NCBI GenBank assembly: GCA_045656725.1
Contig: JAZORS010000088.1
Location: 1 to 31,107 of the forward strand
Direction: 5' to 3'
DNA from: Eubacteriales bacterium
GTDB taxonomy: Bacteria > Bacillota > Clostridia > Oscillospirales > CAG-272
Length of the DNA: 31,107 bases
Part shown: positions 1,041 through 29,110 of the stretch, in pieces
Layout: each line of letters starts with the position of its first letter
How positions within the stretch are numbered: the stretch's first letter is position 1
The notes under the pieces: generated by a model
Told to the model about the DNA's origin: nothing
What the model saw: the letters and a program-made list of their open reading frames with translations, nothing else
Databases searched by the model: none
Position numbers and translations under genes: made by a program

Positions 1041-1772
1041 ATGAAAAAAACGAGTCGGATTCTGAAAATTCTGATAATTTGCGCGGCGCTTTTCGGAATG
1101 ACGCTTGCTTTTGTTAACGCAAAAACAGACGGATATTCTCATTGGCTGACGCGGCTTTTGTATTTTACAAATCAATCGAATATATGGATTGCGGCAACGG
1201 CGGCAGGGCTTCTTGTTCTGGATTTTTCGGGAGCGAAAAAGAGCGAAAAAGCCTATCGGCTCTTTTACTCGCTGAAATTCGTTTTCACCGTGGCGATAAG
1301 CATAACCGCGCTTATATTTTTCGTTGTTTTAGCGCCCGGCGCCGCAAACGAGAATTACCGCGCCTTTACCTTGTCGAGCATAATGGTTCACGCGGTAACG
1401 CCTGCCCTGGCTATCTTGGATTTTTTTATAGAACGCGACGAGACGGTTTTTTCGCGCAAAGAGGTTTTTTATTCCGTGATACCTCCCGTTTACTATCTCG
1501 TTTTTTGCATAGTCCTTTATTTGTTTGAGGTGGATTTCGGCAGGGGCGACAATTTTCCGTATTTCTTTTTGAATTTCGGCTCGCCTGCCGGCATTTTCGG
1601 CACGTCAAGCGAAGCGCCCTACATAATCGGCTCGTTTTATTGGATGGCTTTCATTCTGTTTCTGGTGCTCGGCTTGGCCTATGTCTATTTTATTCTCCAC
1701 CCCGCAACGAGAAGGGTACGCAAAGAGGCAAAACGTGGCGGAAAACATCCGATTTCAGGCAAAACAAAATAA
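1041..1772 (+). CDS. Pr6Pr family (FAR-17a/AIG1-like) membrane protein
   Basis: 243 aa, multiple TM segments, YFTNQSNI motif and HAVTPALAILDF. Confidence 0.8.
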   Translation: MKKTSRILKILIICAALFGMTLAFVNAKTDGYSHWLTRLLYFTNQSNIWIAATAAGLLVLDFSGAKKSEKAYRLFYSLKFVFTVAISITALIFFVVLAPGAANENYRAFTLSSIMVHAVTPALAILDFFIERDETVFSRKEVFYSVIPPVYYLVFCIVLYLFEVDFGRGDNFPYFFLNFGSPAGIFGTSSEAPYIIGSFYWMAFILFLVLGLAYVYFILHPATRRVRKEAKRGGKHPISGKTK

Positions 1773-1785
1773 AAATTCAGAAAAG

Positions 1786-1835
1786 AAAAGGCGAGGATAC
1801 TGCACGGAAGCAACACCCTTGCCTTTTTCATTTTT
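1786..1835. terminator. Probable bidirectional intrinsic terminator
   Basis: AAAAGGCGAGG...CCTTGCCTTTT stem with A- and T-tracts, between convergent genes. Confidence 0.6.
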
Positions 1836-1836
1836 A

Positions 1837-2994
1837 TTAAAGAGAATCTACGTAAGATTTTAAACGGTCAAGACCGTCTTTGATAAGTGCCCTTTGCGTT
1901 GCAAGGTTGATTCTTACGAAGCATTCGCCGCCCTTGCCGTATTCCTTGCCGTCGTTTATCCAAAGCCCCGTTTTTTCTCGGAGGTCATTCGCAAACTCCT
2001 CGGAGTCGCACGAGTAAGCGGAAATATCAACCCAAAGAAGATAGCTCGCGTCCGATTTTACGGCTTTAAGCCTCGGAATATTTTTCTCTATATATTCTTC
2101 CGCAAAGGAGCGGTTTTCAAAAAGATAAACACGAAGCTCGTCAAGCCAATCTCGGCTGTCGCGGTATGCCGCGATATTTGCGTTCATTGAAAAAATATTC
2201 GGCTCGCCAACCTCGTCTGTGTTAATTCCGCGCCAAACCTTATGGCGCAGGTGTGGGTCGGCTACGTAAAGGGTTGATGCTTGAAGTCCCGCAAGATTGA
2301 ACGCCTTTGATGCCGCAACACAGCTGACGGAAATCCGCCTTGCGCACTCGCTTACGGAAGCAAAGGGCACGTAGCTTGTGCCGGGGCGCGTCAGGGGCGA
2401 ATGTATTTCGTCAGAAATGACGGTAACGCCAAATCTTTCGCAAAGCTCGGCAAGCCGAGCGAGCGTTTCCCTATCCCATATTTTTCCCACGGGGTTATGG
2501 GGATTGCAAAGAATCATAAGCGAGGTCTGCTTATCCGCGAGCTTTTCTTCAAGGTCGGAAAAGTCCATTCTGTATTCGCCGTTTTCGTAAACAAGCTCCG
2601 AGCAAACGACGTTTCTGCCGTTGTTGAGAATACAGTTGTAGAAAATATTGTAAACCGGCGACTGCACGAGAACGTTCTCGCCGGGGGTGGTAAGCTTTCT
2701 TACCATAGAGCTTATCGCGGCAACGATGCCTGAGGAATATACCATTTCCTCCGCCCGAAAGCCGGCACCGTATCTCTCGTTATAGAAAGCGGCACATTCC
2801 GAGAAAAATTCGTCGGGAATCGCCGAGTATCCGAAAACAGCATGGTTTGCAGTTTCAAGAATAGCATTCTTTATCGGGGGCGCGGCTTCAAAATCCATAT
2901 CCGCAACCCACATAGGAAGCTCGTTTTCCTTGGCACACCATTTTAAAGAGGGAGTGCCGCGCCTATCTTTCGGAGCATCAAAATTATATTTCAT
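1837..2994 (-). CDS. patB: PLP-dependent C-S lyase, MalY/PatB family
   Basis: 385 aa; LPMWVADMDF, LCNPHNPVG, SDEIH, ASKAFNLAG (PLP lysine). Confidence 0.92.
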   Translation of the reverse strand: MKYNFDAPKDRRGTPSLKWCAKENELPMWVADMDFEAAPPIKNAILETANHAVFGYSAIPDEFFSECAAFYNERYGAGFRAEEMVYSSGIVAAISSMVRKLTTPGENVLVQSPVYNIFYNCILNNGRNVVCSELVYENGEYRMDFSDLEEKLADKQTSLMILCNPHNPVGKIWDRETLARLAELCERFGVTVISDEIHSPLTRPGTSYVPFASVSECARRISVSCVAASKAFNLAGLQASTLYVADPHLRHKVWRGINTDEVGEPNIFSMNANIAAYRDSRDWLDELRVYLFENRSFAEEYIEKNIPRLKAVKSDASYLLWVDISAYSCDSEEFANDLREKTGLWINDGKEYGKGGECFVRINLATQRALIKDGLDRLKSYVDSL

Positions 2995-3003
2995 TTTTTC
3001 TCC

Positions 3004-3858
3004 CTATTCTTCCGTTATTATTTCGGTTTTTGCGGGGTCTATCAAATCACCGTCAAGAATTATCTCGCCTATGGACTTTGCCTTGATTTTACCCGATTTA
3101 GGATTTTTTACGCTGATAATGTCCGTCACAATTTCTGCATTTGCGCTTGAAAACTCAAAAGCGAGGTCTGTATTTATGACCTTGCAGTTGATAAGCTCAA
3201 CGCCCTCCATATAACAAAGGCCCTGGTTGGATTCAATCGTGCAGTTAACAAAGCGCACGTTTTTGGAATTCCAGCCGAGGTATTCGCCAACAATCGTGGA
3301 GTCGTAAACCTCAACGTTTTCCGTGTTCCAGAAAGCATCCTTCGACAGAAGCCTTGCGTTTTTGATTTTAACGTTTTTCGCTCCGTCAAAGGCGTAGTTG
3401 CCGTCAAGGGTGAAGTTTTCGGCGGTAAGGTTCTCCGAATTCATAGCGAAATAATCGCCTCTTGCCGAAACGTTTTTCATAACAACGTCGCGGCAGCTCC
3501 AAAGAGTTTCATCCGCGCGCGAGAGTGTCGTGTCCTCGAGTGTTATTCCCGATGAGCGACGAAAGGTTTTCGGCGCTTGCACCGCGCAGTTTTTTAAGGA
3601 GATGTTTTGCGTATACCAGATTCCCGAGCGAGCCGTGTCAAGCAAGCTCGAATCGGAAAGAGATACGTTTTCCGAATACCAAAGCGGATATTTCCACCTG
3701 AAAACAGACGAAAAAATTTCAAGCTCACTGCTTTCTTTAAGCGGAGATTCTCCGTTCTGAAAGACTGCGTTCACGATTTTTGCTCCGTGGGTATTATATA
3801 GGGCGCGTTCTCCTTCGAAAACGCCGCCGTCGATAAGAGTTTTCGTATTTTTCATCAC
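3004..3858 (-). CDS. DUF3737 family protein (beta-helix-like repeats)
   Basis: 284 aa; GERALY, GESPLKES, RWKYPLWY and repeated W-x-x-x-N-V/I units; ATGA overlap with upstream stop. Confidence 0.85.
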   Translation of the reverse strand: MMKNTKTLIDGGVFEGERALYNTHGAKIVNAVFQNGESPLKESSELEIFSSVFRWKYPLWYSENVSLSDSSLLDTARSGIWYTQNISLKNCAVQAPKTFRRSSGITLEDTTLSRADETLWSCRDVVMKNVSARGDYFAMNSENLTAENFTLDGNYAFDGAKNVKIKNARLLSKDAFWNTENVEVYDSTIVGEYLGWNSKNVRFVNCTIESNQGLCYMEGVELINCKVINTDLAFEFSSANAEIVTDIISVKNPKSGKIKAKSIGEIILDGDLIDPAKTEIITEE

Positions 3859-4457
3859 TGTTCTATCCTCAAAGAAAGCATTTCGGGTGTTATTCTTGCG
3901 GCTTTGTTTCCCGATACGACGAGGTGGTACAAAAGCTTTATCCCCGCCTTGTCAAAAAGGTCCTTTATAATGAGAGTCGAGGTAAAATCCTCTGCCGAAG
4001 GCGCAGGGTCGCCTGCCGGGTGGTTGTGCGCGATAATTGCCGCCAGAGCGCCCTTGCGAGTCGCTCTTTCAAGAAGCTTTATAGGAACGACGTCGGAATA
4101 ATTTGCCGTACCCTCGTTAACAAGCTCGTAGCTTATCGGGCGCATTTGCTTATCGAAGAGCATAATGCATACAACCTCAACGGGGATACCGCGGAATGAA
4201 GCTACGATAAAATCGCATATCTCGGCATCCGTGTGAGAAATTCCGAAGCGGAAGCCGTCGCAAATGCGTCTTGCCGAAAGTGCCGCCGCAAGTGAAAGGA
4301 GCCTTGCCGCCCCCTCATCGCCCGAAATTTCGGCAAGAGTATCGCGCGAAGTGGCGAAAAGGCGCTCCTTCGTTTTGATTTCTTCGGCAAGTCTTTTTGC
4401 CGCAAGCGGCTTTTTTATCAGGGAGAGCGCGTCAAGAAGCTCGTTTTCAAGGTTCAT
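3855..4457 (-). CDS. RadC-like JAB-domain protein, second shorter paralog
   Basis: 200 aa; E...HNHPAGDPAPSAED JAB motif; reduced N-terminus. Confidence 0.8.
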   Translation of the reverse strand: MNLENELLDALSLIKKPLAAKRLAEEIKTKERLFATSRDTLAEISGDEGAARLLSLAAALSARRICDGFRFGISHTDAEICDFIVASFRGIPVEVVCIMLFDKQMRPISYELVNEGTANYSDVVPIKLLERATRKGALAAIIAHNHPAGDPAPSAEDFTSTLIIKDLFDKAGIKLLYHLVVSGNKAARITPEMLSLRIEQ

Positions 4458-5223
4458 TTCCCTTTTGCGCCTCCATTTTTGATTTTATAAATTTCGCAAC
4501 CGCGCCGCCGGCTTCCCGGTCGTCAAGCTGCGAGAACGCAAGTGATAGGTTGTTCTGATAACCGACAAAGCGGTCGCCCGATACGATATAGCTTTCAACA
4601 AGCCGTATTCCCGATGCCGCAAGCGAGGCTTCAAGAAGGTGCGTTGTTTGCATATCCGCCTCTGACGGAAAAAGCGGTCCGTGCGGATGGTTGTGTCCTA
4701 TCATAGCGAGGCATGCGCCGCATTCAACGGCGGCGCTGATAAACGGTGAGGGCTTGACTCCTCCCGAACCGAGATCGAGTGAGTAAAGCTCGCGAGTGCC
4801 GAGATGGCACATATTGCCGTCAAGTAAAACGAGCGCTACCGTGTAATCGCGCTTTTCTTCCAAAAGGCGAAGAAAATATCTGCCGCAATACGAGTAGTCG
4901 TCAAAGCTCTTTTCGCCGACATCCTCCGTTTCCTTGGCAACAGCTGTGAGCCGACCGAGAGCGAGAAGAAAATCGGCGCACTTTCCGCCAATACCCTCAA
5001 CGGACATAAGCTCATCGCGGCTTGCTGAAAAGATAGCGTCAAGCGAGCCGAATCGGGAAATAAGCCGTCTTGCCGTGTGATTCGTGTTCATTTGCGGAAC
5101 TACGTGGTAAAGCGCCATTTCGAGAAGCTCGTGGGTTTCAAAAACCTTTGCTCCGTGTTCGTCGAATTTTCGGCGCATTCTTTGTCTGTGGCCCTTATGA
5201 AGATTCTCTTTTTCAGTCATCAT
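4447..5223 (-). CDS. radC: RadC family protein (HhH + JAB)
   Basis: 258 aa; HKGHRQRMR N-terminal motif, FGSLDAIF...VEGIG HhH, HNHPHGPLFPSEAD. Confidence 0.85.
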   Translation of the reverse strand: MMTEKENLHKGHRQRMRRKFDEHGAKVFETHELLEMALYHVVPQMNTNHTARRLISRFGSLDAIFSASRDELMSVEGIGGKCADFLLALGRLTAVAKETEDVGEKSFDDYSYCGRYFLRLLEEKRDYTVALVLLDGNMCHLGTRELYSLDLGSGGVKPSPFISAAVECGACLAMIGHNHPHGPLFPSEADMQTTHLLEASLAASGIRLVESYIVSGDRFVGYQNNLSLAFSQLDDREAGGAVAKFIKSKMEAQKGNEP

Positions 5224-5945
5224 TACCTTGTCTTTTGACCTTTATTGTATCTTTTTCTTTCGCGAGAAAGCTCCTCGGGAACGTCGGGGCAAAAGCCCGC
5301 GGGTTTTACAACTTCGAGCATATTGATTTTATAGCCCTGCGAGGAGAAATTCTCTTCGTATTCGGTTCTGACGTTATCTTTGTTGTATTCCGAGGCGTGC
5401 AAATCTCTCGTTACGGTAGAGGGGGTGAGTCCAAAGGACTCGATTTCTTCAAGCGTGAAATCGAAGAGCCCCGTGTTATCCGTTTTGAAGCGGAGCTTGC
5501 CGCCGTCCTTTAAAAGATTGAAGTAAACGGCAAGATATCTTCTGTGAGTCAGACGGCGCTTTGCGTATCCCTTTTTAGACCAGGGGTCAGAAAAATTAAG
5601 GAAAAGCGCATCTATCGCACCGGGAAGAAAAATATCCGTAAGGTTGTCCGCCGTATCGATAAGGAAGCGCAGATTTTTTGCGCCGCCCTCCGAAAGAGCC
5701 GCTTCCGCGCCCAGCATAACACAGTCGGTTACCTTTTCCATGGCTATATAAAAGACATCGGGGTTGCGCCTTGCCATCTCTCTTGCAAATCCGCCCTTGC
5801 CCGCGCCGATTTCAAGCCAAATGGGCGCGCCCGGCATGCCTAAATCTGCCGGCGGCTCGCCAAAGGGCTCGTTCGGGGAGGCAAGAAGAAGCTCCTTGCA
5901 TTTCAAAAGACGCTCATACCCGTGTTTCTTTTTTCTCATTCTCAT
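5223..5945 (-). CDS. trmB: tRNA (guanine-N7)-methyltransferase
   Basis: LEIGAGKG, LNFSDPWSKK...RRLTH, FKTDN, TEYEENF. Confidence 0.95.
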   Translation of the reverse strand: MRMRKKKHGYERLLKCKELLLASPNEPFGEPPADLGMPGAPIWLEIGAGKGGFAREMARRNPDVFYIAMEKVTDCVMLGAEAALSEGGAKNLRFLIDTADNLTDIFLPGAIDALFLNFSDPWSKKGYAKRRLTHRRYLAVYFNLLKDGGKLRFKTDNTGLFDFTLEEIESFGLTPSTVTRDLHASEYNKDNVRTEYEENFSSQGYKINMLEVVKPAGFCPDVPEELSRERKRYNKGQKTR

Positions 5946-5982
5946 ATAGTTAACACCTGCTTAAATGTAAATAAAAGTTAAC

Positions 5983-7581
5983 TTAATCCTCTTGACTGCG
6001 ATTGAATTCCGCAAGTTCAAGCCCGGGGTTGTCTTCAAGCACCCATCTTATCGACCATTCGCTTGTGAAAATGAGCAAATTGTTGCCCTTGTAGTCCTGC
6101 ACCCACTTGGTGTCATGCGAGAGCTTCAAGGTCTTGGGGTCGAGTCCTTCGTTCTTTATCCAGCGTATCTGCTGATAGTTAAGGTTTGAACGGCGCAAAT
6201 CACAGCCGTATTCGTTTTTGAGTCGGTATTCGAGCACCTCGAATTGAAGAACGCCGACAACTCCGACGATAACTCTTTCAAGTCCCGAATTCGGCTCGAA
6301 GAATATCTGAATCGCGCCTTCTTGGGCGATCTGGTTCATTCCCTTGGCGAACTGCTTTCTTTTCATAGAGTCCACCTGCTCGACCATTGCAAAATGCTCG
6401 GGCGCAAAGGTGGGAATTCCCTCAAATTTTATTTTTGAGCCGCGCTCGCACACGGTGTCGCCTATCGAGAAGATTCCAGGGTCGAAAACTCCGATAATAT
6501 CGCCCGCATACGCCTCGTCGATAACCTCTCTTTCCGCCGCCATCATTTGCTGTGGCTGGGAAAGGCGGAACGATTTTTGCCCTTGAACGTGATAGTAATC
6601 CTTGCCGCGCTCGAACTTTCCCGAGCAGATTCGCATAAAGGCAATTCTGTCGCGGTGCGCCTTGTTCATATTCGCCTGAATTTTGAAAACAAATGCTGAA
6701 AATCCCTCGTCAAAGGGGTCAACGGTATTTCCCTCGGCAACTCTCGGCAGGGGGGATGTCGTCATTTTAAGGAAATGAACGAGGAATGGCTCAACTCCGA
6801 AATTGTTGAGCGCAGAGCCGAAGAACACGGGCGAGAGCTTTCCGTGTCTTACTGCGTCAAGGTCAAAGTCAAAGCTTGCGCCGTCAAGAAGCTCTACCTG
6901 CTCAACCAGCTCCTCGCGCATATTCTCTCCGATAAGCGAGTCAAGCTTTTCCGTGTCGGTAATATCGCAGTCGATTCCCTTGATTCTTTCTCTGCCGCGG
7001 TGTCTGTCGTCAAAGGAAAGAATGGAATGGCTTGTTCTGTCGTAAACGCCCTTGAATCTCTGTCCGCTTCCAATCGGCCAGTTCATAGGATAAGTGCCGA
7101 TTCCGAACTCGCGTTCAAGCTCGTCAAGCAGGTCAAAGGGATCTCTTGCCTCACGGTCCATTTTATTTATAAAGGTAAAGATGGGAATATCCCTCATAGC
7201 GCAAACCTTGAAAAGCTTTCTCGTTTGCGGCTCAATACCCTTTGCGGCGTCAATTACCATAACTGCGCTGTCTGCCGCCATAAGAGTTCTGTACGTGTCC
7301 TCGGAGAAGTCCTGGTGACCGGGAGTGTCAAGAATATTTATGCAGTATCCGTCGTATTCAAACTGCAAAACGGACGAGGTTATAGAGATACCTCTTTGCT
7401 TTTCAAGCTCCATCCAGTCCGAAACCGCGTGCTTGTCCGATTGCTTTCCCTTTACCGAGCCCGCGGACTGTATTGCGCCGCCGTAGAGGAGGAATTTCTC
7501 CGTCAGGGTGGTTTTTCCCGCGTCGGGGTGAGAGATTATCGCAAATGTGCGCCGCCTTTTTATTTCCTCTTTAAAATCCAT
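5983..7581 (-). CDS. prfC: Peptide chain release factor 3
   Basis: RRTFAIISHPDAGKTT, DWMELEKQRGISI, DTPGHQDF, NKMD; start moved to ATG 7581 (GGAG SD, 532 aa). Confidence 0.96.
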   Translation of the reverse strand: MDFKEEIKRRRTFAIISHPDAGKTTLTEKFLLYGGAIQSAGSVKGKQSDKHAVSDWMELEKQRGISITSSVLQFEYDGYCINILDTPGHQDFSEDTYRTLMAADSAVMVIDAAKGIEPQTRKLFKVCAMRDIPIFTFINKMDREARDPFDLLDELEREFGIGTYPMNWPIGSGQRFKGVYDRTSHSILSFDDRHRGRERIKGIDCDITDTEKLDSLIGENMREELVEQVELLDGASFDFDLDAVRHGKLSPVFFGSALNNFGVEPFLVHFLKMTTSPLPRVAEGNTVDPFDEGFSAFVFKIQANMNKAHRDRIAFMRICSGKFERGKDYYHVQGQKSFRLSQPQQMMAAEREVIDEAYAGDIIGVFDPGIFSIGDTVCERGSKIKFEGIPTFAPEHFAMVEQVDSMKRKQFAKGMNQIAQEGAIQIFFEPNSGLERVIVGVVGVLQFEVLEYRLKNEYGCDLRRSNLNYQQIRWIKNEGLDPKTLKLSHDTKWVQDYKGNNLLIFTSEWSIRWVLEDNPGLELAEFNRSQED

Positions 7582-7587
7582 ATAGGT

Positions 7588-7654
7588 CTCCATTCTGTCG
7601 CCAAAGCGACCGCACAAATTACAGATGAATTTTCGGTATCGCTTTGCCACGATT
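7588..7654 (-). promoter_or_regulatory. Candidate 5'-leader motif, copy 1 (prfC)
   Basis: 54/68 aligned positions identical to 18700-18767; ends in the SD in both. Confidence 0.65.
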
Positions 7655-7790
7655 CGGGGTTGGGTACCAAATCGCGAAAATTCGAGGTGTGAACGCATGA
7701 AGCTCCATAGAGATAAACGTTAATTCACGCTAAAACACCTGTGTTTCCGGTATTTGAGATTAGCCCATAATACCCCATTATCAACTATTT

Positions 7791-7819
7791 ATTTTACCAT
7801 AACACACTGTTTTTGTCAA
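7791..7819 (-). promoter_or_regulatory. sigmaA promoter of prfC operon
   Basis: TTGACA-17bp-TAAAAT with extended TG. Confidence 0.8.
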
Positions 7820-7854
7820 TAATTTAGCCAGAGAAAAAGGGGCGCGAAGCAAAA

Positions 7855-8010
7855 GGTGATGTTCTTGACGGAGAATTTGAAAAGTGCCATTAAGTGTGAG
7901 TGTCGCATTTGACCGGTCAAACGCATTACGGGCTCCCAAACTCATATAACGACAGAAAGAGAGAACAAATCGGTTTGTAGCCGAAATGCCCTCTCTTTTT
8001 CTGTTGTTTT
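7855..8010 (+). repeat. Dispersed palindrome module, copy A
   Basis: Homologous to reverse complement of 28909-29072; TTTGACCGGTCAAA at 7908-7921 followed by a long hairpin. Confidence 0.8.
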
Positions 8011-8166
8011 TTAGTTTAGAGTTATGAGGTTATGCTCCACCGTTATGAGCTTGGGTAAACCCAAGCGTTATGATATGATTGCCCATCAAACATTAAACTT
8101 GGCGAAGCCAATCATAACGATACGAAGTATCTCATAACTCATAACTTGCCCTTGGGGCAATCATAG
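8011..8166. repeat. GTTATGA/TCATAAC hairpin array, copy 1
   Basis: GTTATGA at 8021, 8042, 8067; TCATAAC at 8112, 8132, 8139; interspersed mini-hairpins; homologous to 15711-15855. Confidence 0.85.
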
Positions 8167-8167
8167 T

Positions 8168-8201
8168 TTAGCGTGCTTCTCCGTTTCGAGAAGCACGCTA
8201 A
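8168..8201. terminator. Perfect 14-bp hairpin downstream of MATE gene (terminator or 3' stability element)
   Basis: TTAGCGTGCTTCTC-CGTTTC-GAGAAGCACGCTAA; no clear U-tract. Confidence 0.45.
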
Positions 8202-8227
8202 GCCGCGAGCGCCCCTATAAATATTTT

Positions 8228-9598
8228 TCAGTTTGAAAAGCTCATTTGGGAAAATGCCTTTTTCGTTACGTGTCTGACAAAAACAATAGCAAGCACGAGA
8301 GCCACGAGCTCCGCTAACGGGAACGATAGCCAGATCAGGTCGACAATTCCCGTGAGCGAAAGCAAAAATGCCGCGGGAATGAGAACCACGAGCTGTCTTA
8401 TCATACTGAGATACAAGCTGTATATGCTTTTTCCAAGAGCCTGGCAGGTTGAGGAGCAGATAATCGAGATTCCCGCAAACGGGAAACAAATGCTGATCAG
8501 GCGCAACGCCGGTTTTCCAAGCGCGAGCATGGCTTCTCCGGCATTGAAAATCGAAAGAAGCGCGCCGGGGAAAAGCTGGAAAACGAGAAGTCCGAGGATC
8601 ATATACCCAACCGCCAGAGCCATCGAAAGCTTCATTGCGGCAAGTATTCGCTCTTTTTTATTTGCCCCGTAGTTATAAGCGATTATCGGAATCATTCCGT
8701 TGTTAAGACCGAAAACGGGCATAAAGATAAAGCTTTGAAGCTTGAAGTAAACGCCGAAAACGTTAACCGCTTCCGTGGAAAAGGCGTAAAGAATATTGTT
8801 CATGGAAAGCGTCATAAGCGAGCCTATTGCCTGCATAAGAACGCTTGGAATTCCTATTATGAGCATGTCCTTTATAACGCGGAGCTTGGGTATAAAATTC
8901 TTCAAAATCAGCTTGATTTCCTTGTTACAGACAAGGTTAAGCGTGATTCCTATGGTGGCGGAAACCATCTGTCCGATAACGGTGGCGATAGCTGCGCCGG
9001 CAATACCGAGCGCGGGAAGCCCGAACATTCCGAAAATGAGAATGGGGTCAAGAATAATATTGATTACAGCACCCGACAGCTGCGTTACCATACTTAATAT
9101 GGATTTTCCCGTTGATTGAAGCAGGCGCTCCGCGAAAATCTGCACGAAAACACTGACAGCGCCAATAGAGACTATCGAGAGATATTCTACACTGTAAGTA
9201 TAAAGAAGTCCGGCGTCTCCGACCTGCGCCTCAATAAAGGGGCGCACAGCAAAGAGTCCGAAAAACAAAAACGGCAAGTACCCTGCCAAAAGAAGCGTCA
9301 AGCCCTGACCGGCAATAAGGTTTGCCCTCTTAAAATCCTTTTGACCGAGAGCACGCGAGAGAAGCGCGTTCATACCGACCGCAAGACCGACGGCAACCGC
9401 AATTATTAAGTTCTGAATGGGAAAGGCAAAGGTCAGAGCACCCGTTCCTGCAATGTTGTCGTACTTGGCGACAAAAACCGAGTCAACGATATTGTAAAGC
9501 GCCTGCACGAGCATTGATATGATTATGGGCACGGAAATCGAAATGAGGAGCTTCGGCACTCTCTCCGTTCCCATTTTGTTTTCTTTTATATTTTCCAT
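8228..9598 (-). CDS. MATE family efflux transporter
   Basis: 456 aa, ~12 TM; QALYNIVDS, NIILDPILIFG, AGAAIATVIGQ. Confidence 0.93.
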   Translation of the reverse strand: MENIKENKMGTERVPKLLISISVPIIISMLVQALYNIVDSVFVAKYDNIAGTGALTFAFPIQNLIIAVAVGLAVGMNALLSRALGQKDFKRANLIAGQGLTLLLAGYLPFLFFGLFAVRPFIEAQVGDAGLLYTYSVEYLSIVSIGAVSVFVQIFAERLLQSTGKSILSMVTQLSGAVINIILDPILIFGMFGLPALGIAGAAIATVIGQMVSATIGITLNLVCNKEIKLILKNFIPKLRVIKDMLIIGIPSVLMQAIGSLMTLSMNNILYAFSTEAVNVFGVYFKLQSFIFMPVFGLNNGMIPIIAYNYGANKKERILAAMKLSMALAVGYMILGLLVFQLFPGALLSIFNAGEAMLALGKPALRLISICFPFAGISIICSSTCQALGKSIYSLYLSMIRQLVVLIPAAFLLSLTGIVDLIWLSFPLAELVALVLAIVFVRHVTKKAFSQMSFSN

Positions 9599-9607
9599 AA
9601 GTCCTGT

Positions 9608-10354
9608 TTATTTTCCGTAGGTGAGTATTTTTTCAAGCATAAGCTTTGCTTCGTTCTGGAGCTTTTCATTGCCTGATTCGAGATATCCTCTGACGCGCAG
9701 GCAAATCACGGTGTCCTCCGGTAAGTCCGAAAATCCGGGAAGCGCGGCAAAGGGCGTTGAATGAAGATAGATTGCACCCGTGTCGTAATATTCGTGGCTT
9801 CCCAGCGAAGAGTAGCCTTCAAGATTCTCGAAATATTGCGTTCCTTCAAATTTATATTGGAATTCATTATAAAGGGTGCTTGAAAGGAAGAAAAGGTAGT
9901 AGTCGCTCTTTGATATAATGTTGTTAAAGGTCGTGTTGTTGTTCGTTATCAGATGGTAATTGACTTCAATTTCGTCGTCCTTTTCCGCCTCTTCTATTTC
10001 CGCCGAGGAGAGCATAAACAAATCAAGCAGCGAGATGTTGGTTTCTCCGTCACCGTTAGCGTCGCGCGAAACTTGCAGAAGCGAGGAGCAAAACTTCATA
10101 TATTCGACCTCGCCGTTTTCTGTTTTGTGCGAAATTTCCTTCGGGCCCGCGTAAACTACGAATGAGTCGTAGCTTGTTTTTCCGCACATCTGTAAAGAGC
10201 AAACCGTGATGGCAAAAACCAAAAAAAGCGCGATTATGCTGTGCCACTTATAGTGATACCAGAAGTTGTCGAGCCAAGCGAGAAAGCCGTTTTTCTTTAT
10301 TGTAATATCGGGGCTTGCCTCGTAGGGCTCGTCCCGAAAATTTCTTTCGTTCAT
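9608..10354 (-). CDS. Hypothetical single-TM protein with extracellular domain
   Basis: 248 aa; WLDNFWYHYKWH followed by one TM helix; SD present; 9-nt gap to MATE. Confidence 0.75.
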   Translation of the reverse strand: MNERNFRDEPYEASPDITIKKNGFLAWLDNFWYHYKWHSIIALFLVFAITVCSLQMCGKTSYDSFVVYAGPKEISHKTENGEVEYMKFCSSLLQVSRDANGDGETNISLLDLFMLSSAEIEEAEKDDEIEVNYHLITNNNTTFNNIISKSDYYLFFLSSTLYNEFQYKFEGTQYFENLEGYSSLGSHEYYDTGAIYLHSTPFAALPGFSDLPEDTVICLRVRGYLESGNEKLQNEAKLMLEKILTYGK

Positions 10355-10400
10355 AAAAATCCTTTCACGGCTGAAAATCAGCCGAAGCTTAATTCAACCC

Positions 10401-10430
10401 ATTGTATCATATAGCGCGACACCCATTCAA
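10401..10430 (-). promoter_or_regulatory. Probable promoter of hypothetical-MATE operon
   Basis: TTGAAT-18bp-TACAAT with extended TG. Confidence 0.5.
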
Positions 10431-10441
10431 GAGCAATTTGT

Positions 10442-10483
10442 AAACAAATGAGGAAAACCGCGGTTTTGACCTCGGTTTCCCTC
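10442..10483 (-). terminator. Intrinsic terminator of lysS transcript
   Basis: GAGGGAAACCGAGG-loop-CCGCGGTTTTCCTC followed by ATTTGTTT on minus strand. Confidence 0.6.
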
Positions 10484-10507
10484 AAAATTTATTCTTTTAA
10501 TAGATAA

Positions 10508-10536
10508 AGCTTTATACTTCCGGTTTCATAGTCGGG
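10508..10536 (-). repeat. Duplicate of lysS 3' end (att-like direct repeat)
   Basis: 25/29 identical to 10669-10697; exact 15-bp core GGTTTCATAGTCGGG; encodes PTMKPEV* versus PTMKPEA*. Confidence 0.85.
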
Positions 10537-10672
10537 TAGCAAGTCAAAAACAACTGAGTGTTGTTTTTACGCAGCGAAACCGCAGGGAGCAACGAGCTGA
10601 AGGAGAGGTTAATCCTCGACACGCAGCGACTATAGGGCGGTGGAGGGGCTCGGTACGTGGGTGATGGTAGCT

Positions 10673-15636: not shown

Positions 15637-15674
15637 AAAAGGACAGAGAATTTTTACGTTCTCTGTCCTTTTTT
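15637..15674. terminator. Bidirectional intrinsic terminator
   Basis: AAAAGGACAGAGAA-loop-TTCTCTGTCCTTTTTT. Confidence 0.75.
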
Positions 15675-15710
15675 CTTGACAAGCACTGCATTTGTAGACA
15701 CAAATACCTT

Positions 15711-15855
15711 TTTAGTTATGAGTTATAAGGATTGCTTGTGCTCACCGTTATGATGTGATCGCCCGTTTACTTCAAGCTGTGCCGAAGGCACATCATAACT
15801 TGGCGTAGCCAATCATAACTTTAAACTCGCCGTAGGCGATCATAACTGCGTAACT
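15711..15855. repeat. GTTATGA/TCATAAC hairpin array, copy 2
   Basis: GTTATGA at 15715 and 15747; TCATAAC at 15793, 15813, 15840; shares AACTTGGCG(A/T)AGCCAATCATAAC and ACCGTTATGA with 8011-8166. Confidence 0.85.
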
Positions 15856-15914
15856 GCTTTATGGCAGGTACGCCGCGGCAGGAGTTTTTTGGATTGTTCA
15901 AAAGTGTGCCCGCG

Positions 15915-24331: not shown

Positions 24332-24465
24332 GTATTTTTTTCAAAAAAAGATGTTTTTTGTGAATTTTGCCGAAATTTGATAGAAAATTATAAAAATATT
24401 CCGAAAAATTACGCTTTTATACAAGCTAAAAACAATAAATTTGCAACACAAAAGAAAATACTACG

Positions 24466-24550
24466 TGCTTTTGCATATCTCGCACGCGAACCGTATATCG
24501 CATTGTGTAGCAATATATCGCAAATCCCGCAAGAAATTTATATCGCTGCG
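24466..24550. repeat. Half copy of ATATCG hairpin array
   Basis: TATATCGC at 24494, 24514, 24539 separated by small hairpins; TGCTTTTGCAT..CTCGC shared with ~28753. Confidence 0.7.
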
Positions 24551-24667
24551 TGATGCTCTTAACGGAGTATCACGCTTTATGCCGCGGCCTTTTTAACACA
24601 AAAATCTACATTTTATTATATATTATAAAAAGCTTTTCTGTGCGGCTCGCTTTTTGTGGCTTTTGGC

Positions 24668-25757: not shown

Positions 25758-28652
25758 GTGTACGAGCTTAAAATAGGAGAAAAAATCGAGGGCTTTGCAG
25801 TCACTCGGAAAACAGAGCTCCCTGATATAGCGGCAACTCTTTACGAAATGGAATACGAAAGGTGCGGCGCAAAGCTTGTTTTCCTTGACAGAGAGGACGA
25901 AAACAAGACCTTTTCCGTCGGATTCAAGACCGTGCCCGAAAACAGCACGGGCGTTTTCCACATAATTGAGCATTCCGTGCTTTGCGGCTCGAAAAAATAC
26001 CCGACGAAAGAGCCGTTTGTAGAGCTTTTAAAGGGCTCTCTTAACACCTTCCTTAATGCGATGACCTTCCCCGACAAAACGGTTTATCCCATTTCCACGA
26101 GAAATCCGAAGGATTTTCTCAATCTTGCTGACGTTTATCTTGACGCGGTGTTCAATCCCGTTATGAAGGATGACGTTAACGTTTTCTATCAGGAGGGCTG
26201 GCGCAGAGAAATTTCGGATTCGGGCGAGCTCTCTTATAACGGAGTGGTTTATAACGAAATGAAGGGCGCGTATTCTTCCCCTGATGAGCTTGGCGAGTCA
26301 AGGGCAAACGCGATGCTTTTCGGGGATAGCTGCTACGGCTACGATTCGGGCGGAAATCCCGATGTGATTCCTGAGCTTACTTACGAGGAATTCGTTGCTT
26401 CGTATTCGAAATTCTATCATCCGTCAAACGCATATTTTTTCATTGACGGAACGCTTGAGCTTTCGGCAATTCTCGCCCTTATTTCCTCTTACATAAAGGA
26501 TTACGAAAAATGCCCCGTTGATGCGGAAATTCCCGAAACCAAAGAGGTTTGTGTGCCGCGCGATACGGTTGAATTTGAGATATCCGACGGACAAAGCGAG
26601 GAAAACCGCACGCGTATTCTTAACAGCTATCTTGCGCAGAAATATGACGATTTTGTTTCCTCGGCCGCATTTGACGCGGCTCTTGATGCTATTGCGGGCA
26701 CGAATGAAGCACCCTTGAAGCGCGCTATACTTGATTCGGGCCTTTGCGAAAAGCTTTCGTTTTATTACGGCGGCTCGCGCCTATACTATACCCTTTCCCT
26801 TGAATTCCAGAACGTGAAGGACGGACGGGGCGAGGAGCTTCTTTCGCTCTTTGAAAAAACGCTTTCGGATATACTTGATAAGGGCATTGATAAGGAGCAT
26901 ATCGAAGCGGCGATAAACCATATGGAGTTCAGCCAGCGCGAGAGGGATATGGGACGGCTGCCCCTCGGAATATTATATAATATTTCCGTTCTCGGAACTT
27001 GGCTCTACGGCGGCGACCCGGCGGCAACGCTTTCTTATACGGAGCTTTTCGGTAAACTGCGCGAGCTTATTCCTACGGGATATTTTGAGGACGTTTTAAG
27101 AGAGTATTTGCTTGAAAACAAAAACAAGGTTACACTCACCCTCAAACCCTCCGCAACACTCGGACAAAGACGCGCCGAGGCGGAAAAAGCATTCTTTGAA
27201 AAGGAGGCGATGGCTCTTTCCGAGGAAGAAAAGAAAGGAATAAAAGAAGAAAACCGCCTTCTCAATCTTCGTCAGAGCGCGCCCGACACGCCACAAGCGC
27301 TTGCAACTATTCCCTCGCTTTCCGTATCGGATATACCGAAGGAGCTTCGCGAAACACCGACCGAGGTGAGCGAGATAAACGGAGTGCCCGTTATAACCCA
27401 CGATATGAACACGGGCGGAATCAGCTACACCGAGCTTTTCTTTGACGTGTCGGATACGGACACGTCCGATATGTATATGCTTCCTCTTTTCTCTGCTATG
27501 CTTACGAATTCTCCCGTCGGTGATAAGGATGCCTACGGCATGCAGAATCTCATTAAGCGCGAGCTTGGCGAGCTTGCCGTATCTCCTTTCGTTATGACAA
27601 GGGACGGGAAAGCAGGTCTTTATATAAAGCTTACCGCAAGCGCGCTTGACGGCAAGCGGCGCGAGCTTGTTTCAATCCTGAAAGAGATGCTTTATTCCGC
27701 GAAAATCGAGGACAAAAATACGCTCTCCGCATTTATCGCGCAAACGAAGCTTCGGCTCGAATCAAGCTTCACCGAGGCGGGTGATTCGGTGGGAACAGGA
27801 CGCGCGCTTGCTATGTGCGATGCGGAATATGCGGTGCGCGAGTACGTATTTGGCTACGAATTTTATCAAAAAATCCGCAAGCTCACCGCAGCGGATGGCG
27901 AGGAGCTTGATTTGCTTCTTGAAAAAATGCGCGCTTTCTATAAAAAAGTATTCGTAAGAGAGCGCCTTACCCTTGCCTCCTCCGGCGCAAAGGACGAAGC
28001 CTTCCTTGATGGGCTTACCCTTGCCGTGAGAGCTTCGGGCGAAAACTTTACACCTGTTAAATACAAGCCGATAAAAGCGGAAAAAGAGGCGATTGCGATT
28101 CCTGCGCAGGTTGGCTTTGCCGCGCTTGCTACGAAGCTTTCCGAAATCGGAGAGCGCGTTACCGGAGCTTTGCTCGTTGCGAAGCTTATACTGAACTACG
28201 AGTATCTGTGGGGCGAGGTCAGAGTTAAGGGCGGAGCTTACGGAGTTGCCTGCCGTGTCCGTCAGGACGGAGCTGTCAGCTTCTCTTCTTACCGCGACCC
28301 AAGCTCTCCGAAGAGCTTTGACGTTTTCAGGGGCAGTGCTGAATTCTTGCGCGAATTTGTCGGGCAGAGGGTGGATTTAACCAAGTATATAATCGGCGCG
28401 ATAGGTGAGTTTGACCCGTATTCGTCAAAGCCCCTTGAAGCATCGGGCGCAACGGCAAATTACCTCACCGGCTTTACAGCCGAAGAAAAGGCGCGTATCC
28501 GAAGGGAAATTCTCGAAGTCGGATATGACGAGCTTCTTTCGGTTGCCGACATTCTTGATAAATTCAGCTCCGCGGCAAATCAGGTGACGGTTGCTCCGAA
28601 ACCTACCCTTGACGAGCACAAGGAGCTTTACGACACGCTTTTATGTATATAA
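25758..28652 (+). CDS. Insulinase family M16C metallopeptidase (PreP/Cym1-like)
   Basis: HIIEH inverted zincin, FLNAMTFPDKTVYP, EVRVKGGAYG, SYRDP; start moved to GTG 25758 after AAGGAG. Confidence 0.93.
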   Translation: MYELKIGEKIEGFAVTRKTELPDIAATLYEMEYERCGAKLVFLDREDENKTFSVGFKTVPENSTGVFHIIEHSVLCGSKKYPTKEPFVELLKGSLNTFLNAMTFPDKTVYPISTRNPKDFLNLADVYLDAVFNPVMKDDVNVFYQEGWRREISDSGELSYNGVVYNEMKGAYSSPDELGESRANAMLFGDSCYGYDSGGNPDVIPELTYEEFVASYSKFYHPSNAYFFIDGTLELSAILALISSYIKDYEKCPVDAEIPETKEVCVPRDTVEFEISDGQSEENRTRILNSYLAQKYDDFVSSAAFDAALDAIAGTNEAPLKRAILDSGLCEKLSFYYGGSRLYYTLSLEFQNVKDGRGEELLSLFEKTLSDILDKGIDKEHIEAAINHMEFSQRERDMGRLPLGILYNISVLGTWLYGGDPAATLSYTELFGKLRELIPTGYFEDVLREYLLENKNKVTLTLKPSATLGQRRAEAEKAFFEKEAMALSEEEKKGIKEENRLLNLRQSAPDTPQALATIPSLSVSDIPKELRETPTEVSEINGVPVITHDMNTGGISYTELFFDVSDTDTSDMYMLPLFSAMLTNSPVGDKDAYGMQNLIKRELGELAVSPFVMTRDGKAGLYIKLTASALDGKRRELVSILKEMLYSAKIEDKNTLSAFIAQTKLRLESSFTEAGDSVGTGRALAMCDAEYAVREYVFGYEFYQKIRKLTAADGEELDLLLEKMRAFYKKVFVRERLTLASSGAKDEAFLDGLTLAVRASGENFTPVKYKPIKAEKEAIAIPAQVGFAALATKLSEIGERVTGALLVAKLILNYEYLWGEVRVKGGAYGVACRVRQDGAVSFSSYRDPSSPKSFDVFRGSAEFLREFVGQRVDLTKYIIGAIGEFDPYSSKPLEASGATANYLTGFTAEEKARIRREILEVGYDELLSVADILDKFSSAANQVTVAPKPTLDEHKELYDTLLCI

Positions 28653-28690
28653 CACCGCGTGTTCTCCCAAACGGAGAACACGCATCGAGA

Positions 28691-28911
28691 TAAATCCCTT
28701 GCTGGATTTTCGATATGTTGCTATCGCAACTCGATATGCCTTCGGCTCGATATGCTTTTGCATTCCTCGCCAAAGGCGAGATATGTCAAAAGCGAGAGGG
28801 ATTTATCTCATATCGAATTGTCGCGAAGCGGCAATATATCGAGCTTGAGCGCAGCGAAAGCATATCGAATTCATCTATCGTGAACATATTTCACGAAAGT
28901 GAATATATCGA
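28691..28911. repeat. TCGATATG/CATATCGA hairpin array
   Basis: TCGATATG at 28710, 28731, 28747; (C/T)ATATCGA at 28809, 28835, 28861, 28904; interspersed hairpins. Confidence 0.88.
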
Positions 28912-29072
28912 CAGAAAGAAAAACAAGAGCAAGAATAGAAGGATTTTTCTCCTTTTATTTTTGCTCTTTCTGCTTGTAATATGGGTTTGGGCTTAGCCCA
29001 TTTGCATTTGACCGGTCAAATGCGATGCTTGCACTTTTGTCAAAGTCAAAATTCTCCGCTAAGGACATCACC
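28909..29072 (-). repeat. Dispersed palindrome module, copy B
   Basis: Perfect 20-bp palindrome GCATTTGACCGGTCAAATGC at 29004-29023; homologous to 7855-8010. Confidence 0.8.
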
Positions 29073-29110
29073 CAATTCGGCGTTCGGCGCGGTTTTTTTG
29101 CGTATTTCAA

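What the first reader, a model, noticed from the sequence alone, without database searches (positions are those of the whole stretch)
7855..8010. Dispersed ~160-bp module with a TTTGACCGGTCAAA palindrome, two copies 21 kb apart
Seen: GGTGATGT.CTT..CGGAGAATTT...AAGTG..AG..TCGCATTTGACCGGTCAAA.GCA..A.GGGCT...CCCAAAC.CATAT.AC...CAGAAAGAG is shared with the reverse complement of 28909-29072. The loopless palindrome (14 bp here, 20 bp in copy B) suits a dimeric protein or recombinase site. The adjoining long hairpin has diverged in sequence but keeps pairing, with most mismatches readable as G-U on the homologous strand in both copies, hinting at RNA-level structure.
Basis: partly seen in the sequence, partly recalled or inferred. 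Interest (0 to 1): 0.68.

Follow-up and report, generated by a model that had tools for sequence, protein, structure and literature searches.

The report
Mobile hairpin repeat nested in terminators
The two look-alike stretches are the conserved "head" of a 350-420-base, gene-less repeat that has been copied into the loops of ordinary transcription terminators in many uncultured gut Clostridia; the element is real and widespread, but what moves it and what it does are still unknown.

Summary
Window 7855-7965 (+) and 29072-28964 (-) share a ~110-nt block holding TTTGACCGGTCAAA, followed by a diverged long hairpin that still pairs.

It is not a two-copy duplication. The block occurs 7 times in this 1.64-Mb genome, in 22 of 36 genus relatives, and in more than 119 stretches of uncultured Clostridia MAGs, mostly from ruminant hindgut.

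The block is the left end of a composite element: block, long hairpin, an array of 3-4 forward and 3-4 inverted copies of a subfamily-specific 8-mer separated by mini-hairpins, then a terminal hairpin. The two ends form ~21-bp inverted repeats.

Each copy sits inside the loop of a locus-specific A-run/stem/T-run terminator. Relatives (MatE 85-91% identical) keep the same MatE terminator, and two keep prfC after it, but lack window 7855-8200, with at most 1-2 nt of target duplication.

The palindrome is a hairpin with a variable 4-nt loop and is perfect in only 37 of 80 copies. G-T and A-C mismatches are equally common, so the RNA-specific reading fails.

Arrays of sister copies match Rfam Gut-1 (RF01706) at threshold; the window's two copies do not. 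This scan found the same element kind before on other DNA. The mover and the function are unknown.

The parts
7834..7854 (+). Host side of the MatE terminator: A-run (7834-7838), 5' half of the stem GGGGCGC (7839-7845) and the left part of the original loop (7846-7854)
   Evidence: Pairs with 8209-8215 in the MFE fold on both strands. Homologous to the uninterrupted terminator of relatives L222, L224 and L225.
7855..8200 (+). Copy A of the composite element (346 nt, boundaries +/-2 nt), absent from close relatives
   Evidence: In blastn of the window against relative contig L232, window 7854-8196 has no counterpart and the flanks abut with a 5-nt overlap. Manual junction reading comes from alignment A3.
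7855..7962 (+). Conserved 5' block (the 'head' module of the finding). Its first ~22 nt are the left terminal inverted repeat.
   Evidence: nhmmer profile hit at 7855-7962, E = 2.6e-26. 80-sequence alignment A2 has mean column identity 80%. Inverted-repeat test.
7905..7924 (+). Palindrome hairpin GCATTTGA-CCGG-TCAAACGC, holding the 14-mer at 7908-7921
   Evidence: Helix 3 of A2 has 89.7% of cells paired, a compensated pair at columns 64/70 and a variable 4-nt centre.
7953..8003 (+). Long hairpin with A-rich 5' and T-rich 3' shoulders (terminator-like). It also occurs alone after genes elsewhere in the genome.
   Evidence: Stand-alone copies at C116:5858, C187:2296, C159:1487 and C207:2893.
8004..8168 (+). 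Array: GTTATGA(G) forward copies (first at 8021) and TCATAAC inverted copies (last, degenerate, at 8161-8166), separated by mini-hairpins
   Evidence: This subfamily holds 20 of the 78 classified elements and is at least 90% identical in most columns across species.
8169..8200 (+). Terminal hairpin (TAGCGTG...CACGCTA), the right terminal inverted repeat
   Evidence: The 5' end aligns better to its reverse complement than to its forward sequence in 81 of 85 elements.
8201..8228 (+). Host side of the MatE terminator: right part of the original loop (8201-8208), 3' half of the stem GCGCCCC (8209-8215) and T-rich tail
   Evidence: The MatE ORF ends at 8228 on the minus strand.
28657..29072 (-). 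Copy B of the composite element (416 nt): block 29072-28963, palindrome 29020-29007, long hairpin, TCGATAT/ATATCGA array, terminal hairpin 28683-28657
29087..29099 (-). A-run plus 5' half of the DUF6472-gene terminator stem (AAAAAAACCGCGC) flanking copy B
   Evidence: The same A-run and stem form an ordinary terminator after the 93%-identical DUF6472 gene of relatives L219 and L220, which lack the element. Homology to L219 ends at window 29087.
15640..15880 (+). Related element with the alternative 'type B' head (hairpin, then CTTGACAAGCACTGCATTTGTAGACACAAAT) joined to a GTTATGA/TCATAAC array and a terminal hairpin
   Evidence: Type B heads also precede arrays at C53 (twice), C235, C2 and C152 of the same genome.
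24455..24580 (+). Partial array of the GCGATAT subfamily with a terminal hairpin whose loop is inverted relative to the array
   Evidence: Sub-threshold Gut-1 match at 24472-24548 (-), 29.9 bits, E = 0.04.

Best explanation
The finding is the conserved left-end module of a modular, non-coding, non-autonomous mobile repeat. The whole unit is 283-445 nt. It consists of the head block with the palindrome hairpin, a terminator-like long hairpin, an array of 3-4 forward and 3-4 inverted copies of one subfamily-specific 8-mer spaced by mini-hairpins, and a terminal hairpin. The first ~21 nt and the terminal hairpin are imperfect inverted repeats. Shown: the unit is dispersed. It occurs as identical copies at different loci of one genome. 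It is far more alike between species than the host genes are. It lies within the loop of pre-existing intrinsic terminators, next to gene ends and in either orientation. At the MatE terminator it is an insertion (or precise loss) relative to close relatives, with no target loss and at most 1-2 nt of duplication. Inferred: it is moved in trans by an enzyme not encoded in the element and not identified here, one that recognises the inverted-repeat hairpin ends and integrates into the exposed apex of hairpin DNA. Also inferred: the copies are tolerated because the element folds on itself, so the two terminator halves still close around it and termination in both directions survives. On this reading the palindrome is one of the element's internal stem-loops. 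It may matter for recognition or folding during transfer. It is not a host regulator box.
For: Copy number and spread:
- The genome holds 7 blocks and about 25 arrays.
- 22 of 36 genus genomes and 2 other families of the order carry the block.
- The genome-contig scan found more than 119 stretches, almost all in uncultured Clostridia MAGs.

Terminator nesting:
- The flanks of 89 complete elements pair at a mean of -23.5 kcal/mol, against -12.0 for mismatched partners. 74% fall below the control's 5th percentile.
- The flanks read A-run/unique stem ... stem/T-run.
- A gene ends beside 32 of the 5' sides and 47 of the 3' sides. Only 1 element has no gene end on either side.

Empty site:
- Three relatives (MatE 91%, 91% and 85% identical) carry the same MatE terminator without window 7854-8196, and two of them (L222, L233) read on into prfC. 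L225 reads ...TCGCAGCT^TTTGCTTCG... where the window has the element.
- The relative of copy B has the plain terminator with the same A-run and stem.

Recent spread:
- G004 has identical copies behind different flanks, and they break the assembly at contig ends.
- GTTATGA arrays are at least 90% identical in most columns across species, while MatE DNA is at most 69% identical to any of 212 genus genomes.

Other features:
- Terminal inverted repeats: local score 11.1 inverted, 5.75 forward, 4.8 shuffled; inverted beats forward in 81 of 85.
- No ORF and no conserved promoter lie inside the element.
- The MFE fold closes the outer stem on both strands.
- Heads and arrays recombine: C45 carries the head of copy B with the array of C144, and a metagenome contig joins copy A's head to an ATGAAATC array.
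Against: - No autonomous partner was found. No element has a gene between its ends.
- IS110-type genes were not found in the genome.
- The single IS200-type TnpA has unrelated ends. Y1 transposase presence does not track the block: 7 of 10 Y1+ genomes carry it, against 15 of 26 Y1- genomes.
- Inverted-repeat transposons normally leave a clear target duplication, and none is seen here.
- The empty site equally fits precise loss in the relatives.
- MAGs often lack insertion sequences, so the absence of a mover is weak evidence either way.
- The identity of all eight 8-mers within an array, and their concerted replacement between otherwise homologous arrays, is not explained by this model.
- Hairpin stems show compensated changes, which would also fit selection on a folded RNA.
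Confidence: 0.6

Rival explanations
1. It is a structured RNA (a long form of the Gut-1 candidate ncRNA) or a 3'-UTR module. It would be transcribed by read-through from the neighbouring gene, and it would act as RNA, for instance as a 3'-end protector, a termination enhancer, or a sponge presenting repeated single-stranded 8-mers between stable hairpins. The palindrome would be one helix of the conserved 5' domain. This reading can coexist with mobility.
For: - Very strong folding: -153 kcal/mol, z = -10.2.
- Compensated changes in the long hairpin and in array hairpins.
- Array halves of sister copies reach the Rfam Gut-1 model at threshold: 50.1, 49.7 and 49.0 bits against a gathering score of 50. 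Weinberg et al. 2010 rated Gut-1 a likely RNA (PMC2864571).
- The element sits inside transcribed terminators.
- Several gut metatranscriptome runs hold 5-7% of the element's sampled words.
- Loops are strand-biased: C-GNA-G 130 vs 40, GCAA/GTAA tetraloops 32 vs 2.
Against: - The reverse strand folds as well: -151 kcal/mol, z = -10.6. Across 85 elements neither strand is clearly better.
- G-T and A-C mismatches in stems are equal, which is not expected of a helix selected in one RNA strand.
- No conserved promoter.
- Orientation relative to the reading gene is not fixed: ++ 5, -- 9, convergent 17.
- The four helices an array would form are identical in sequence, so the fold is ambiguous.
- Copies are gained and lost between close relatives.
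- The block shows almost no covariation: 18 both-side changes in 2078 cells.
- The loop bias is not phylogenetically independent.
Confidence: 0.22
2. It is a DNA-level protein-binding platform. A dimeric protein or recombinase would bind the palindrome. The phased 8-mers (four direct, four inverted) would be iteron- or centromere-like sites for a sequence-specific DNA-binding protein.
For: - The block's sequence is conserved beyond what its helices need. Most pairs never vary.
- 8-mers recur with a modal spacing of 22 bp in the forward arm.
- All eight copies in an array share one word, and the word differs between subfamilies. That is what a specificity determinant looks like.
Against: - The palindrome is imperfect in 43 of 80 copies and its centre varies freely.
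- Spacing is broad (20-26 forward, 16-23 reverse) and not helically phased.
- Every spacer is itself a hairpin, which double-stranded binding does not need.
- At least five word classes coexist in one 1.64-Mb genome, with no paralogous binding-protein family beside them. Neighbours are housekeeping genes.
Confidence: 0.08
3. The two copies are leftovers of a local duplication within this 31-kb stretch.
For: Only that the two copies lie 21 kb apart in inverted orientation.
Against: - The genome holds five further copies on other contigs, and other genomes hold well over a hundred.
- Copy B's head is nearly identical to that of C45, not to copy A.
- Copy A is absent from syntenic relatives.
Confidence: 0.01

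Closest known systems
Gut-1 RNA motif (Rfam RF01706; Weinberg et al. 2010, Genome Biol 11:R31, PMC2864571)
   Same: The Gut-1 consensus, three hairpins separated by (G)UGAAAU, is one arm of the ATGAAATC-type array. Arrays of sister copies match the model at or just under threshold: own-genome C144 at 50.1 bits, L028 at 49.7, L029 at 49.0. Gut-1 is likewise known only from uncultured gut bacteria, and its function is unknown.
   Different: The module of this finding (head block, palindrome, long hairpin) is not part of Gut-1 and matches no Rfam family. The arrays of the window's two copies use other words (GTTATGA, TCGATAT) and are not hit. The paper treats Gut-1 as a free-standing ncRNA. Here it is half of a pseudo-dyad array inside a larger dispersed element nested in terminators.
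BOX elements of Streptococcus pneumoniae (boxA-boxB(n)-boxC; see Croucher et al. 2011, PMC3049150)
   Same: Both are modular, gene-less intergenic repeats with conserved end modules. Both have a variable number of internal units, strong predicted secondary structure and no encoded transposase. This comparison rests on my own knowledge of the literature; the paper was listed but I did not read it.
   Different: No sequence relation was tested. BOX internal units are repeats of one 45-nt module. Here a short word is repeated between unlike hairpins, first forward and then inverted. Systematic nesting in terminator loops is not a described BOX property, to my knowledge.
MITEs (miniature inverted-repeat transposable elements; reviews PMC3184786, PMC10969869)
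   Same: Small, non-coding, multi-copy, with terminal inverted repeats, insertion polymorphism between relatives, and subfamilies.
   Different: No clear target-site duplication (at most 1-2 nt) and no identified parent insertion sequence. Target choice is the apex of a hairpin rather than a short sequence.
REP/BIME/REPIN elements with RAYT transposases (PMC3337134)
   Same: Extragenic palindromic repeats at gene 3' ends that are tolerated in or as terminators. They are thought to move through folded single-stranded DNA without target duplication.
   Different: No RAYT link: Y1 transposase genes do not co-occur with the element, and the one IS200-type gene has unrelated flanking hairpins. The element is ten times longer than a REP and has a composite architecture.

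Membership tests
Gut-1 RNA (RF01706) | Match to the Rfam covariance model at or above the gathering score (50 bits) | tested here: not met
   There is no hit on 7700-8300 even at E <= 10. The whole window gives no hit at gathering. At E <= 5 the only hit is 24472-24548 at 29.9 bits. Sister copies do reach it: C144 of the same genome at 50.1 bits, L028 at 49.7, L029 at 49.0.
Gut-1 RNA (RF01706) | Architecture of three short hairpins separated by a repeated UGAAAU-like word | tested here: met
   Both window copies have the hairpin/word/hairpin layout in their arrays, but with the words GTTATGA and TCGATAT. The head block of the finding lies outside this architecture.
MITE | Short, non-coding, many dispersed copies | tested here: met
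   Length is 283-445 nt. No ORF of 60 aa or more lies within either copy; the few listed frames that overlap copy A's 3' end or copy B (8139..8489, 28591..28848, 28659..28883, 28715..28996) are not conserved across copies. The genome holds 7 blocks and about 25 arrays.
MITE | Terminal inverted repeats | tested here: met
   About 21 nt, 17 of 21 identical in the example. Inverted beats forward in 81 of 85 elements.
MITE | Target-site duplication of fixed length | tested here: not met
   Comparing the occupied and empty MatE terminator leaves at most 1-2 ambiguous A residues. Two loci (L177, L205) instead show long, unequal duplications of 18 and 48 nt.
MITE | Presence/absence polymorphism at orthologous sites | tested here: met
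   Relatives L222, L224 and L225 lack copy A (L222 keeps both flanking genes, MatE and prfC). L219 and L220 lack copy B.
MITE | A parent insertion sequence with the same ends | tested here: not met
   No element has a gene between its ends in 156 block hits. The block pattern is absent from viral contigs. MAGs are poor at assembling insertion sequences, so this is weak.
REP/REPIN-RAYT or IS200/IS605-derived element | Co-occurrence with a Y1 (HUH) transposase whose flanking hairpins match the repeat | tested here: not met
   The genome has one Y1_Tnp gene (C178), and its flanking hairpins are unrelated. The block is present in 7 of 10 Y1+ and 15 of 26 Y1- genus genomes.
REP/REPIN-RAYT or IS200/IS605-derived element | Insertion without duplication, 3' of a short conserved target word | tested here: inconclusive
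   No duplication is seen. The 5' flank shows a loose A-A-W-G preference in alignment A2, but copy A has AAAA, and A-rich terminator loops could produce the same pattern.
Intrinsic (rho-independent) terminator, for the outer flanks | GC-rich stem followed by a T-run directly after a gene end | tested here: met
   Relatives carry the same stems as plain terminators.

The most novel reading that the evidence does not exclude
The element may spread by a transposition route not yet described. Integration would be free of target duplication and aimed at the apex of extruded hairpin DNA (terminator loops). It would be carried out on a folded single strand by an unidentified trans-acting enzyme. The eight identical, self-complementary 8-mers would act as an exchangeable nucleic-acid 'address' that defines subfamilies. 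This would also explain why homologous arrays swap all eight words in concert, and it would give the 2010 Gut-1 'RNA' a DNA-level role.
Probability: 0.15. Interest if true: 0.85.

Novelty: new variant of a known kind. Interest (0 to 1): 0.5.

Why it matters
- It places the orphan Gut-1 motif, unexplained since 2010, inside a larger dispersed element. That shifts the question from "what does this RNA do" to "what moves this element and why are terminators its home".
- An element that lands precisely in terminator hairpin loops without duplicating its target, and that keeps termination geometry intact, would be a useful natural example of neutral-site targeting. It would also be a marker of horizontal exchange among uncultured gut Clostridia.
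- Practically, these repeats break MAG assemblies. Several copies lie at contig ends, and one coincides with a synteny break.
- If the mover is ordinary, or the copies are old and dead, this is simply one more bacterial interspersed repeat family.

Tried and rejected
- Rfam at gathering score and at loose E-values on the window gave nothing for the finding's module.
- No tRNA or tmRNA.
- Promoter scan: no promoter-like site shared by the two copies. The strong site at 7819-7791 belongs to prfC. A TTGACA-18-ACAAAT match in the alternative type B head coincides with the palindrome arm and was judged unconvincing.
- The strand test by folding energy was indecisive. The test by wobble pairs was null. 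Loop bias is present but confounded by shared ancestry and by the pseudo-dyad layout.
- IS200/RAYT link rejected. No IS110 family genes found.
- No autonomous long form in 156 hits.
- Viral contigs: 0 block hits and 1 genuine array in 8 pattern hits.
- Laying metagenome contigs on the window gave only short, mixed-organism pieces and no clean empty-site joint.
- Exact-protein look-ups of the window's own DUF6472 protein found nothing. The empty sites came from homologues instead.
- No genus genome is closer than 69% in MatE DNA, so further empty sites could not be sought in the held genomes.
- TIGR-Tas stem-loop arrays were considered and dropped. Those units carry box C/D motifs and variable spacers beside a Nop-domain gene (PMC12045711). 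Here the short word is constant and no such gene is nearby.
- CtsR, ParB and Noc-type boxes were recalled for the palindrome. I dropped them because the half-sites vary.
- Small-ORF readings of ATG...TAA at the element ends are not conserved in frame between copies.

Full report
**1. What is in the sequence.**
- Window 7855-7965 (+) and 29072-28964 (-) share a block of about 110 nt (77% identity, E = 7e-14 within the genome). The block contains the exact 14-mer TTTGACCGGTCAAA at 7908-7921 and 29007-29020.
- A long hairpin follows in both copies. Its sequence differs but both pair.
- The likeness does not end at 8010. Both copies continue with the same layout:
  - an array in which one short word recurs 3-4 times forward and then 3-4 times inverted, each unit separated by a different mini-hairpin (GTTATGA/TCATAAC in copy A, TCGATAT/ATATCGA in copy B);
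  - a conserved terminal hairpin (GCGTG..CTCCGTTT..GAG..CACGC).
- Copy A runs from 7855 to 8200. Copy B runs from 29072 down to 28657.

**2. Census.**
- The head block occurs 7 times in this 1.64-Mb, 236-contig genome (C88 twice, C144, C45, C7, C158, C119).
- It is found in 22 of 36 sampled genomes of the genus, with 1-10 hits each, and in 2 of 24 other families of the order.
The 80 listed rows were almost all uncultured Clostridia, Oscillospiraceae, Christensenellaceae or Eubacteriales MAGs, mostly from sheep, goat, deer and yak hindgut. One looked like a chance hit.
- No phage contig has the block.
- A profile search of everything fetched gave 156 block hits and 85 distinct complete elements. 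Length from block start to terminal hairpin is 283-445 nt, median 358.

**3. The element is modular.**
- The genome holds about 25 arrays but only 7 head blocks.
- Many arrays carry a second, unrelated-looking 'type B' head. It still contains a GCATTTGT-N4-ACAAAT hairpin homologous to the palindrome. Window 15640-15880 is one such element.
- The long hairpin also stands alone after genes (C116, C187, C159, C207).
- An optional ~45-nt module is present 1-3 times between block and long hairpin in some copies.
- Heads and arrays are shuffled. C45 has copy B's head almost base for base but C144's array. A metagenome contig joins copy A's head to an ATGAAATC array (loose end at 8010).
- Among 78 classified head-linked elements the array words are GTTATGA 20, GTGAAGT 16, TGAAATC 11, ATGAATT 11, GCGATAT 8, TGATGTT 5, GTGATAT 4 and TCGATAT 3.

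**4. The ends.** The first ~21 nt of the block match the reverse complement of the terminal hairpin. The mean local score is 11.1, against 5.75 for the forward hairpin and 4.8 for a shuffled one. Inverted beats forward in 81 of 85 elements. The element therefore has imperfect terminal inverted repeats, each lying in a hairpin.

**5. Where it sits.**
- Every complete copy is bracketed by a sequence unique to its locus: an A-run and a GC-rich half-stem upstream, the complementary half-stem and a T-run downstream.
- Flank-to-flank duplexes average -23.5 kcal/mol, against -12.0 for mismatched partners.
- The brackets start about 20-35 nt after stop codons. A gene ends beside the 5' side in 32 cases and beside the 3' side in 47. 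Only one element has no gene end on either side.
- Orientation relative to the reading gene is not fixed: ++ 5, -- 9, convergent 17. An earlier, cruder ORF call overcounted divergent contexts and is superseded.
- In the window the neighbours are housekeeping genes: prfC, a MatE transporter, a PreP-type peptidase, a DUF6472 protein and an Mrr-like nuclease.

**6. The decisive comparison.**
- Homologues of the MatE protein at 91%, 91% and 85% identity lie on ENA/Logan contigs, and those that reach past the terminator (L222, L233) keep the MatE-prfC order. In L222 the two genes are 162 nt apart, against 529 nt in the window.
- In blastn against the 21-kb relative locus, window 1-7853 and 8197-10395 are collinear at 79-84% identity, while 7854-8196 has no counterpart. 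Five bases (GCAAA/GCTAA) align to both sides.
- Read by eye in alignment A3, the relative L225 has the terminator GGCGC-TCGCAGCT^TTTGCTTCGT-GCGCC-TTTT. The window has GGGGCGC-TCGCGGCT[element]TTTTGCTTC-GCGCCCC-TTTTT.
- So the outer stem is the pre-existing MatE terminator. The element occupies its loop, no target bases are lost, and at most 1-2 A residues could be duplicated.
- For copy B, the 93%-identical DUF6472 gene of a relative is followed by an ordinary terminator using the same A-run and CCGCGC stem, without the element. Homology to the window stops inside that terminator, and the downstream genes differ (rplM-rpsI versus a convergent PreP).

**7. Signs of recent spread.**
- In G004, a 99%-complete genome, identical copies over at least 137 nt sit behind different flanks and end contigs.
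- GTTATGA arrays from 20 loci in different species are at least 90% identical in most columns, and the block has 80% mean column identity over 80 diverse copies.
- By contrast, the MatE gene is at most 69% identical in DNA to any of 212 genus genomes.
- Either the element moves between species or it is under very strong constraint.

**8. Structure and strand.**
- Copy A with its flanks folds at -153.4 kcal/mol (z = -10.2), and the fold closes the outer terminator stem. The reverse strand gives -151.2 (z = -10.6). Over 85 elements neither strand is clearly better.
- In the block, four proposed helices are 87% paired but nearly invariant. Only 18 of 2078 cells show a both-side change, mainly one pair of the palindrome stem.
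- The 14-mer is a perfect palindrome in 37 of 80 copies. Its centre reads CCGG 31, CTGG 23, CTAG 15 and CCAG 3, which is stem-loop behaviour.
- G-T versus A-C mismatches are 127/124 in the block, 71/89 in the other hairpins and 35/24 in the outer stems. There is no RNA-strand signature.
- The long hairpin does keep pairing through at least six compensated variants.
- Array loops are biased on the strand shown: C-GAA-G 76 vs C-TTC-G 10, C-GNA-G 130 vs 40, GCAA/GTAA 32 vs 2. C-GNA-G and C-GNNA-G are the consensus of very stable DNA mini-hairpins (abstracts of PMC13037366 and PMC3201870, seen in the listing; neither paper was read). However, the counts are not independent events, and the array is a pseudo-dyad, so I treat this as a lead only.

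**9. Relation to known families.**
- Earlier reports of this scan on other genomes tied look-alike elements to the Rfam Gut-1 motif. I tested this.
- The Gut-1 model hits one arm of the arrays of sister copies at 50.1 (own-genome C144), 49.7 and 49.0 bits against a gathering score of 50, and weaker in other word classes.
- In the window only 24472-24548 scores, at 29.9 bits. Copies A and B and the head block score nothing.
- Weinberg et al. 2010 list Gut-1 as a likely RNA known only from human-gut metagenomes, with no function.
- The module of this finding is therefore an undescribed companion of Gut-1-type arrays. Literature searches for terminator-targeting repeats found nothing matching.

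**10. The mover.**
- Nothing in the element codes for protein.
- No long form with a gene between the ends was seen.
- IS110-type genes were not found.
- The one IS200-type transposase has unrelated ends, and Y1 transposase presence does not track the element.
- The mover is unknown. MAG incompleteness limits this negative.

**11. Reading.**
- Best supported (about 0.6): a modular, non-autonomous mobile repeat that nests in terminator loops and is tolerated because it folds on itself and lets the terminator close.
- RNA function (about 0.2) is not excluded and can coexist with mobility. Weak support comes from gut metatranscriptome runs holding a few of its words.
- A double-stranded protein-binding platform is unlikely (about 0.08). 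Word spacing is broad: 20-26 forward, 16-23 reverse.
- Unexplained: why all eight words of an array are identical, and why they are replaced in concert between arrays that share other landmarks (the central TGCCC and the TTGCCC..GGGCAA hairpin).

Noticed in passing
window 15640-15880: A second kind of element: a terminator-like hairpin, then CTTGACAAGCACTGCATTTGTAGACACAAAT (a palindrome homologue that also reads as TTGACA-18-ACAAAT), then a GTTATGA/TCATAAC array and a terminal hairpin. The same 'type B' head precedes arrays on C53 (twice), C235, C2 and C152.
   Followed up: partly
window 24455-24580: Half-array of the GCGATAT class. The loop of its terminal hairpin is inverted relative to the array (CTCTTAACGGAG instead of CTCCGTTAAGAG). 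The same flip occurs in L066 and L062. This region gives the only Gut-1 hit in the window (24472-24548, 29.9 bits).
   Followed up: partly
L208 (G013:C4:1200-2800): An IS3-family insertion sequence, judged by eye from its orfA-like HTH/leucine-zipper product, has landed in the loop of the long hairpin of one element. This recalls IS3-family members that target REP loops.
   Followed up: no
L108, L052/L203, L050, L058, L116: An optional ~45-nt module (ACCCCCAAAGCTCATACTTCGCTTCGGGGAACCC...) sits between the head block and the long hairpin. It is present once, or three times in tandem in L108.
   Followed up: no
G000 C116:5858, C187:2296, C159:1487, C207:2893: The long hairpin (AGAAAGAGAGAACAAATCGG...CCGAAATGTTCTCTCTTTTT) occurs alone directly after genes, looking like an ordinary terminator. 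In C207 it is followed at once by a terminal hairpin with no array.
   Followed up: no
window 28650-29110 versus L219 2700-3010: Synteny breaks exactly at the terminator holding copy B. The relative continues with rplM-rpsI on the same strand. The window continues with a convergent PreP-type peptidase whose stop codon lies 5 nt from the terminal hairpin.
   Followed up: partly
L177 (G028:C106) and L205 (G017:C21): Two loci show long direct duplications of the target around an element. One is 18 nt (terminator 5' half plus loop). The other is about 48 nt (tRNA 3' end plus terminator 5' half). This differs from the clean nesting seen elsewhere.
   Followed up: no
alignment A2, columns 65-69 (palindrome centre): The loop reads CCGG 31, CTGG 23, CTAG 15 but CCAG only 3. 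This is a one-sided series of C-to-T transitions at a CCGG site, possibly deamination of a methylated or single-stranded C, or simply shared ancestry.
   Followed up: no
window 10395-10640 versus L232 1473-9203: The close relative has about 7.7 kb (VanY, fumarase subunits, PGA_cap, M20 peptidase, DUF4387, AtuA, AraC regulator) between lysS and the 248-aa gene. In the window these two genes are adjacent.
   Followed up: no
G000 C178:10550-10906 (-): The genome's single IS200-type Y1 transposase gene, flanked by CCACC..GGTGG hairpins unrelated to the element.
   Followed up: yes
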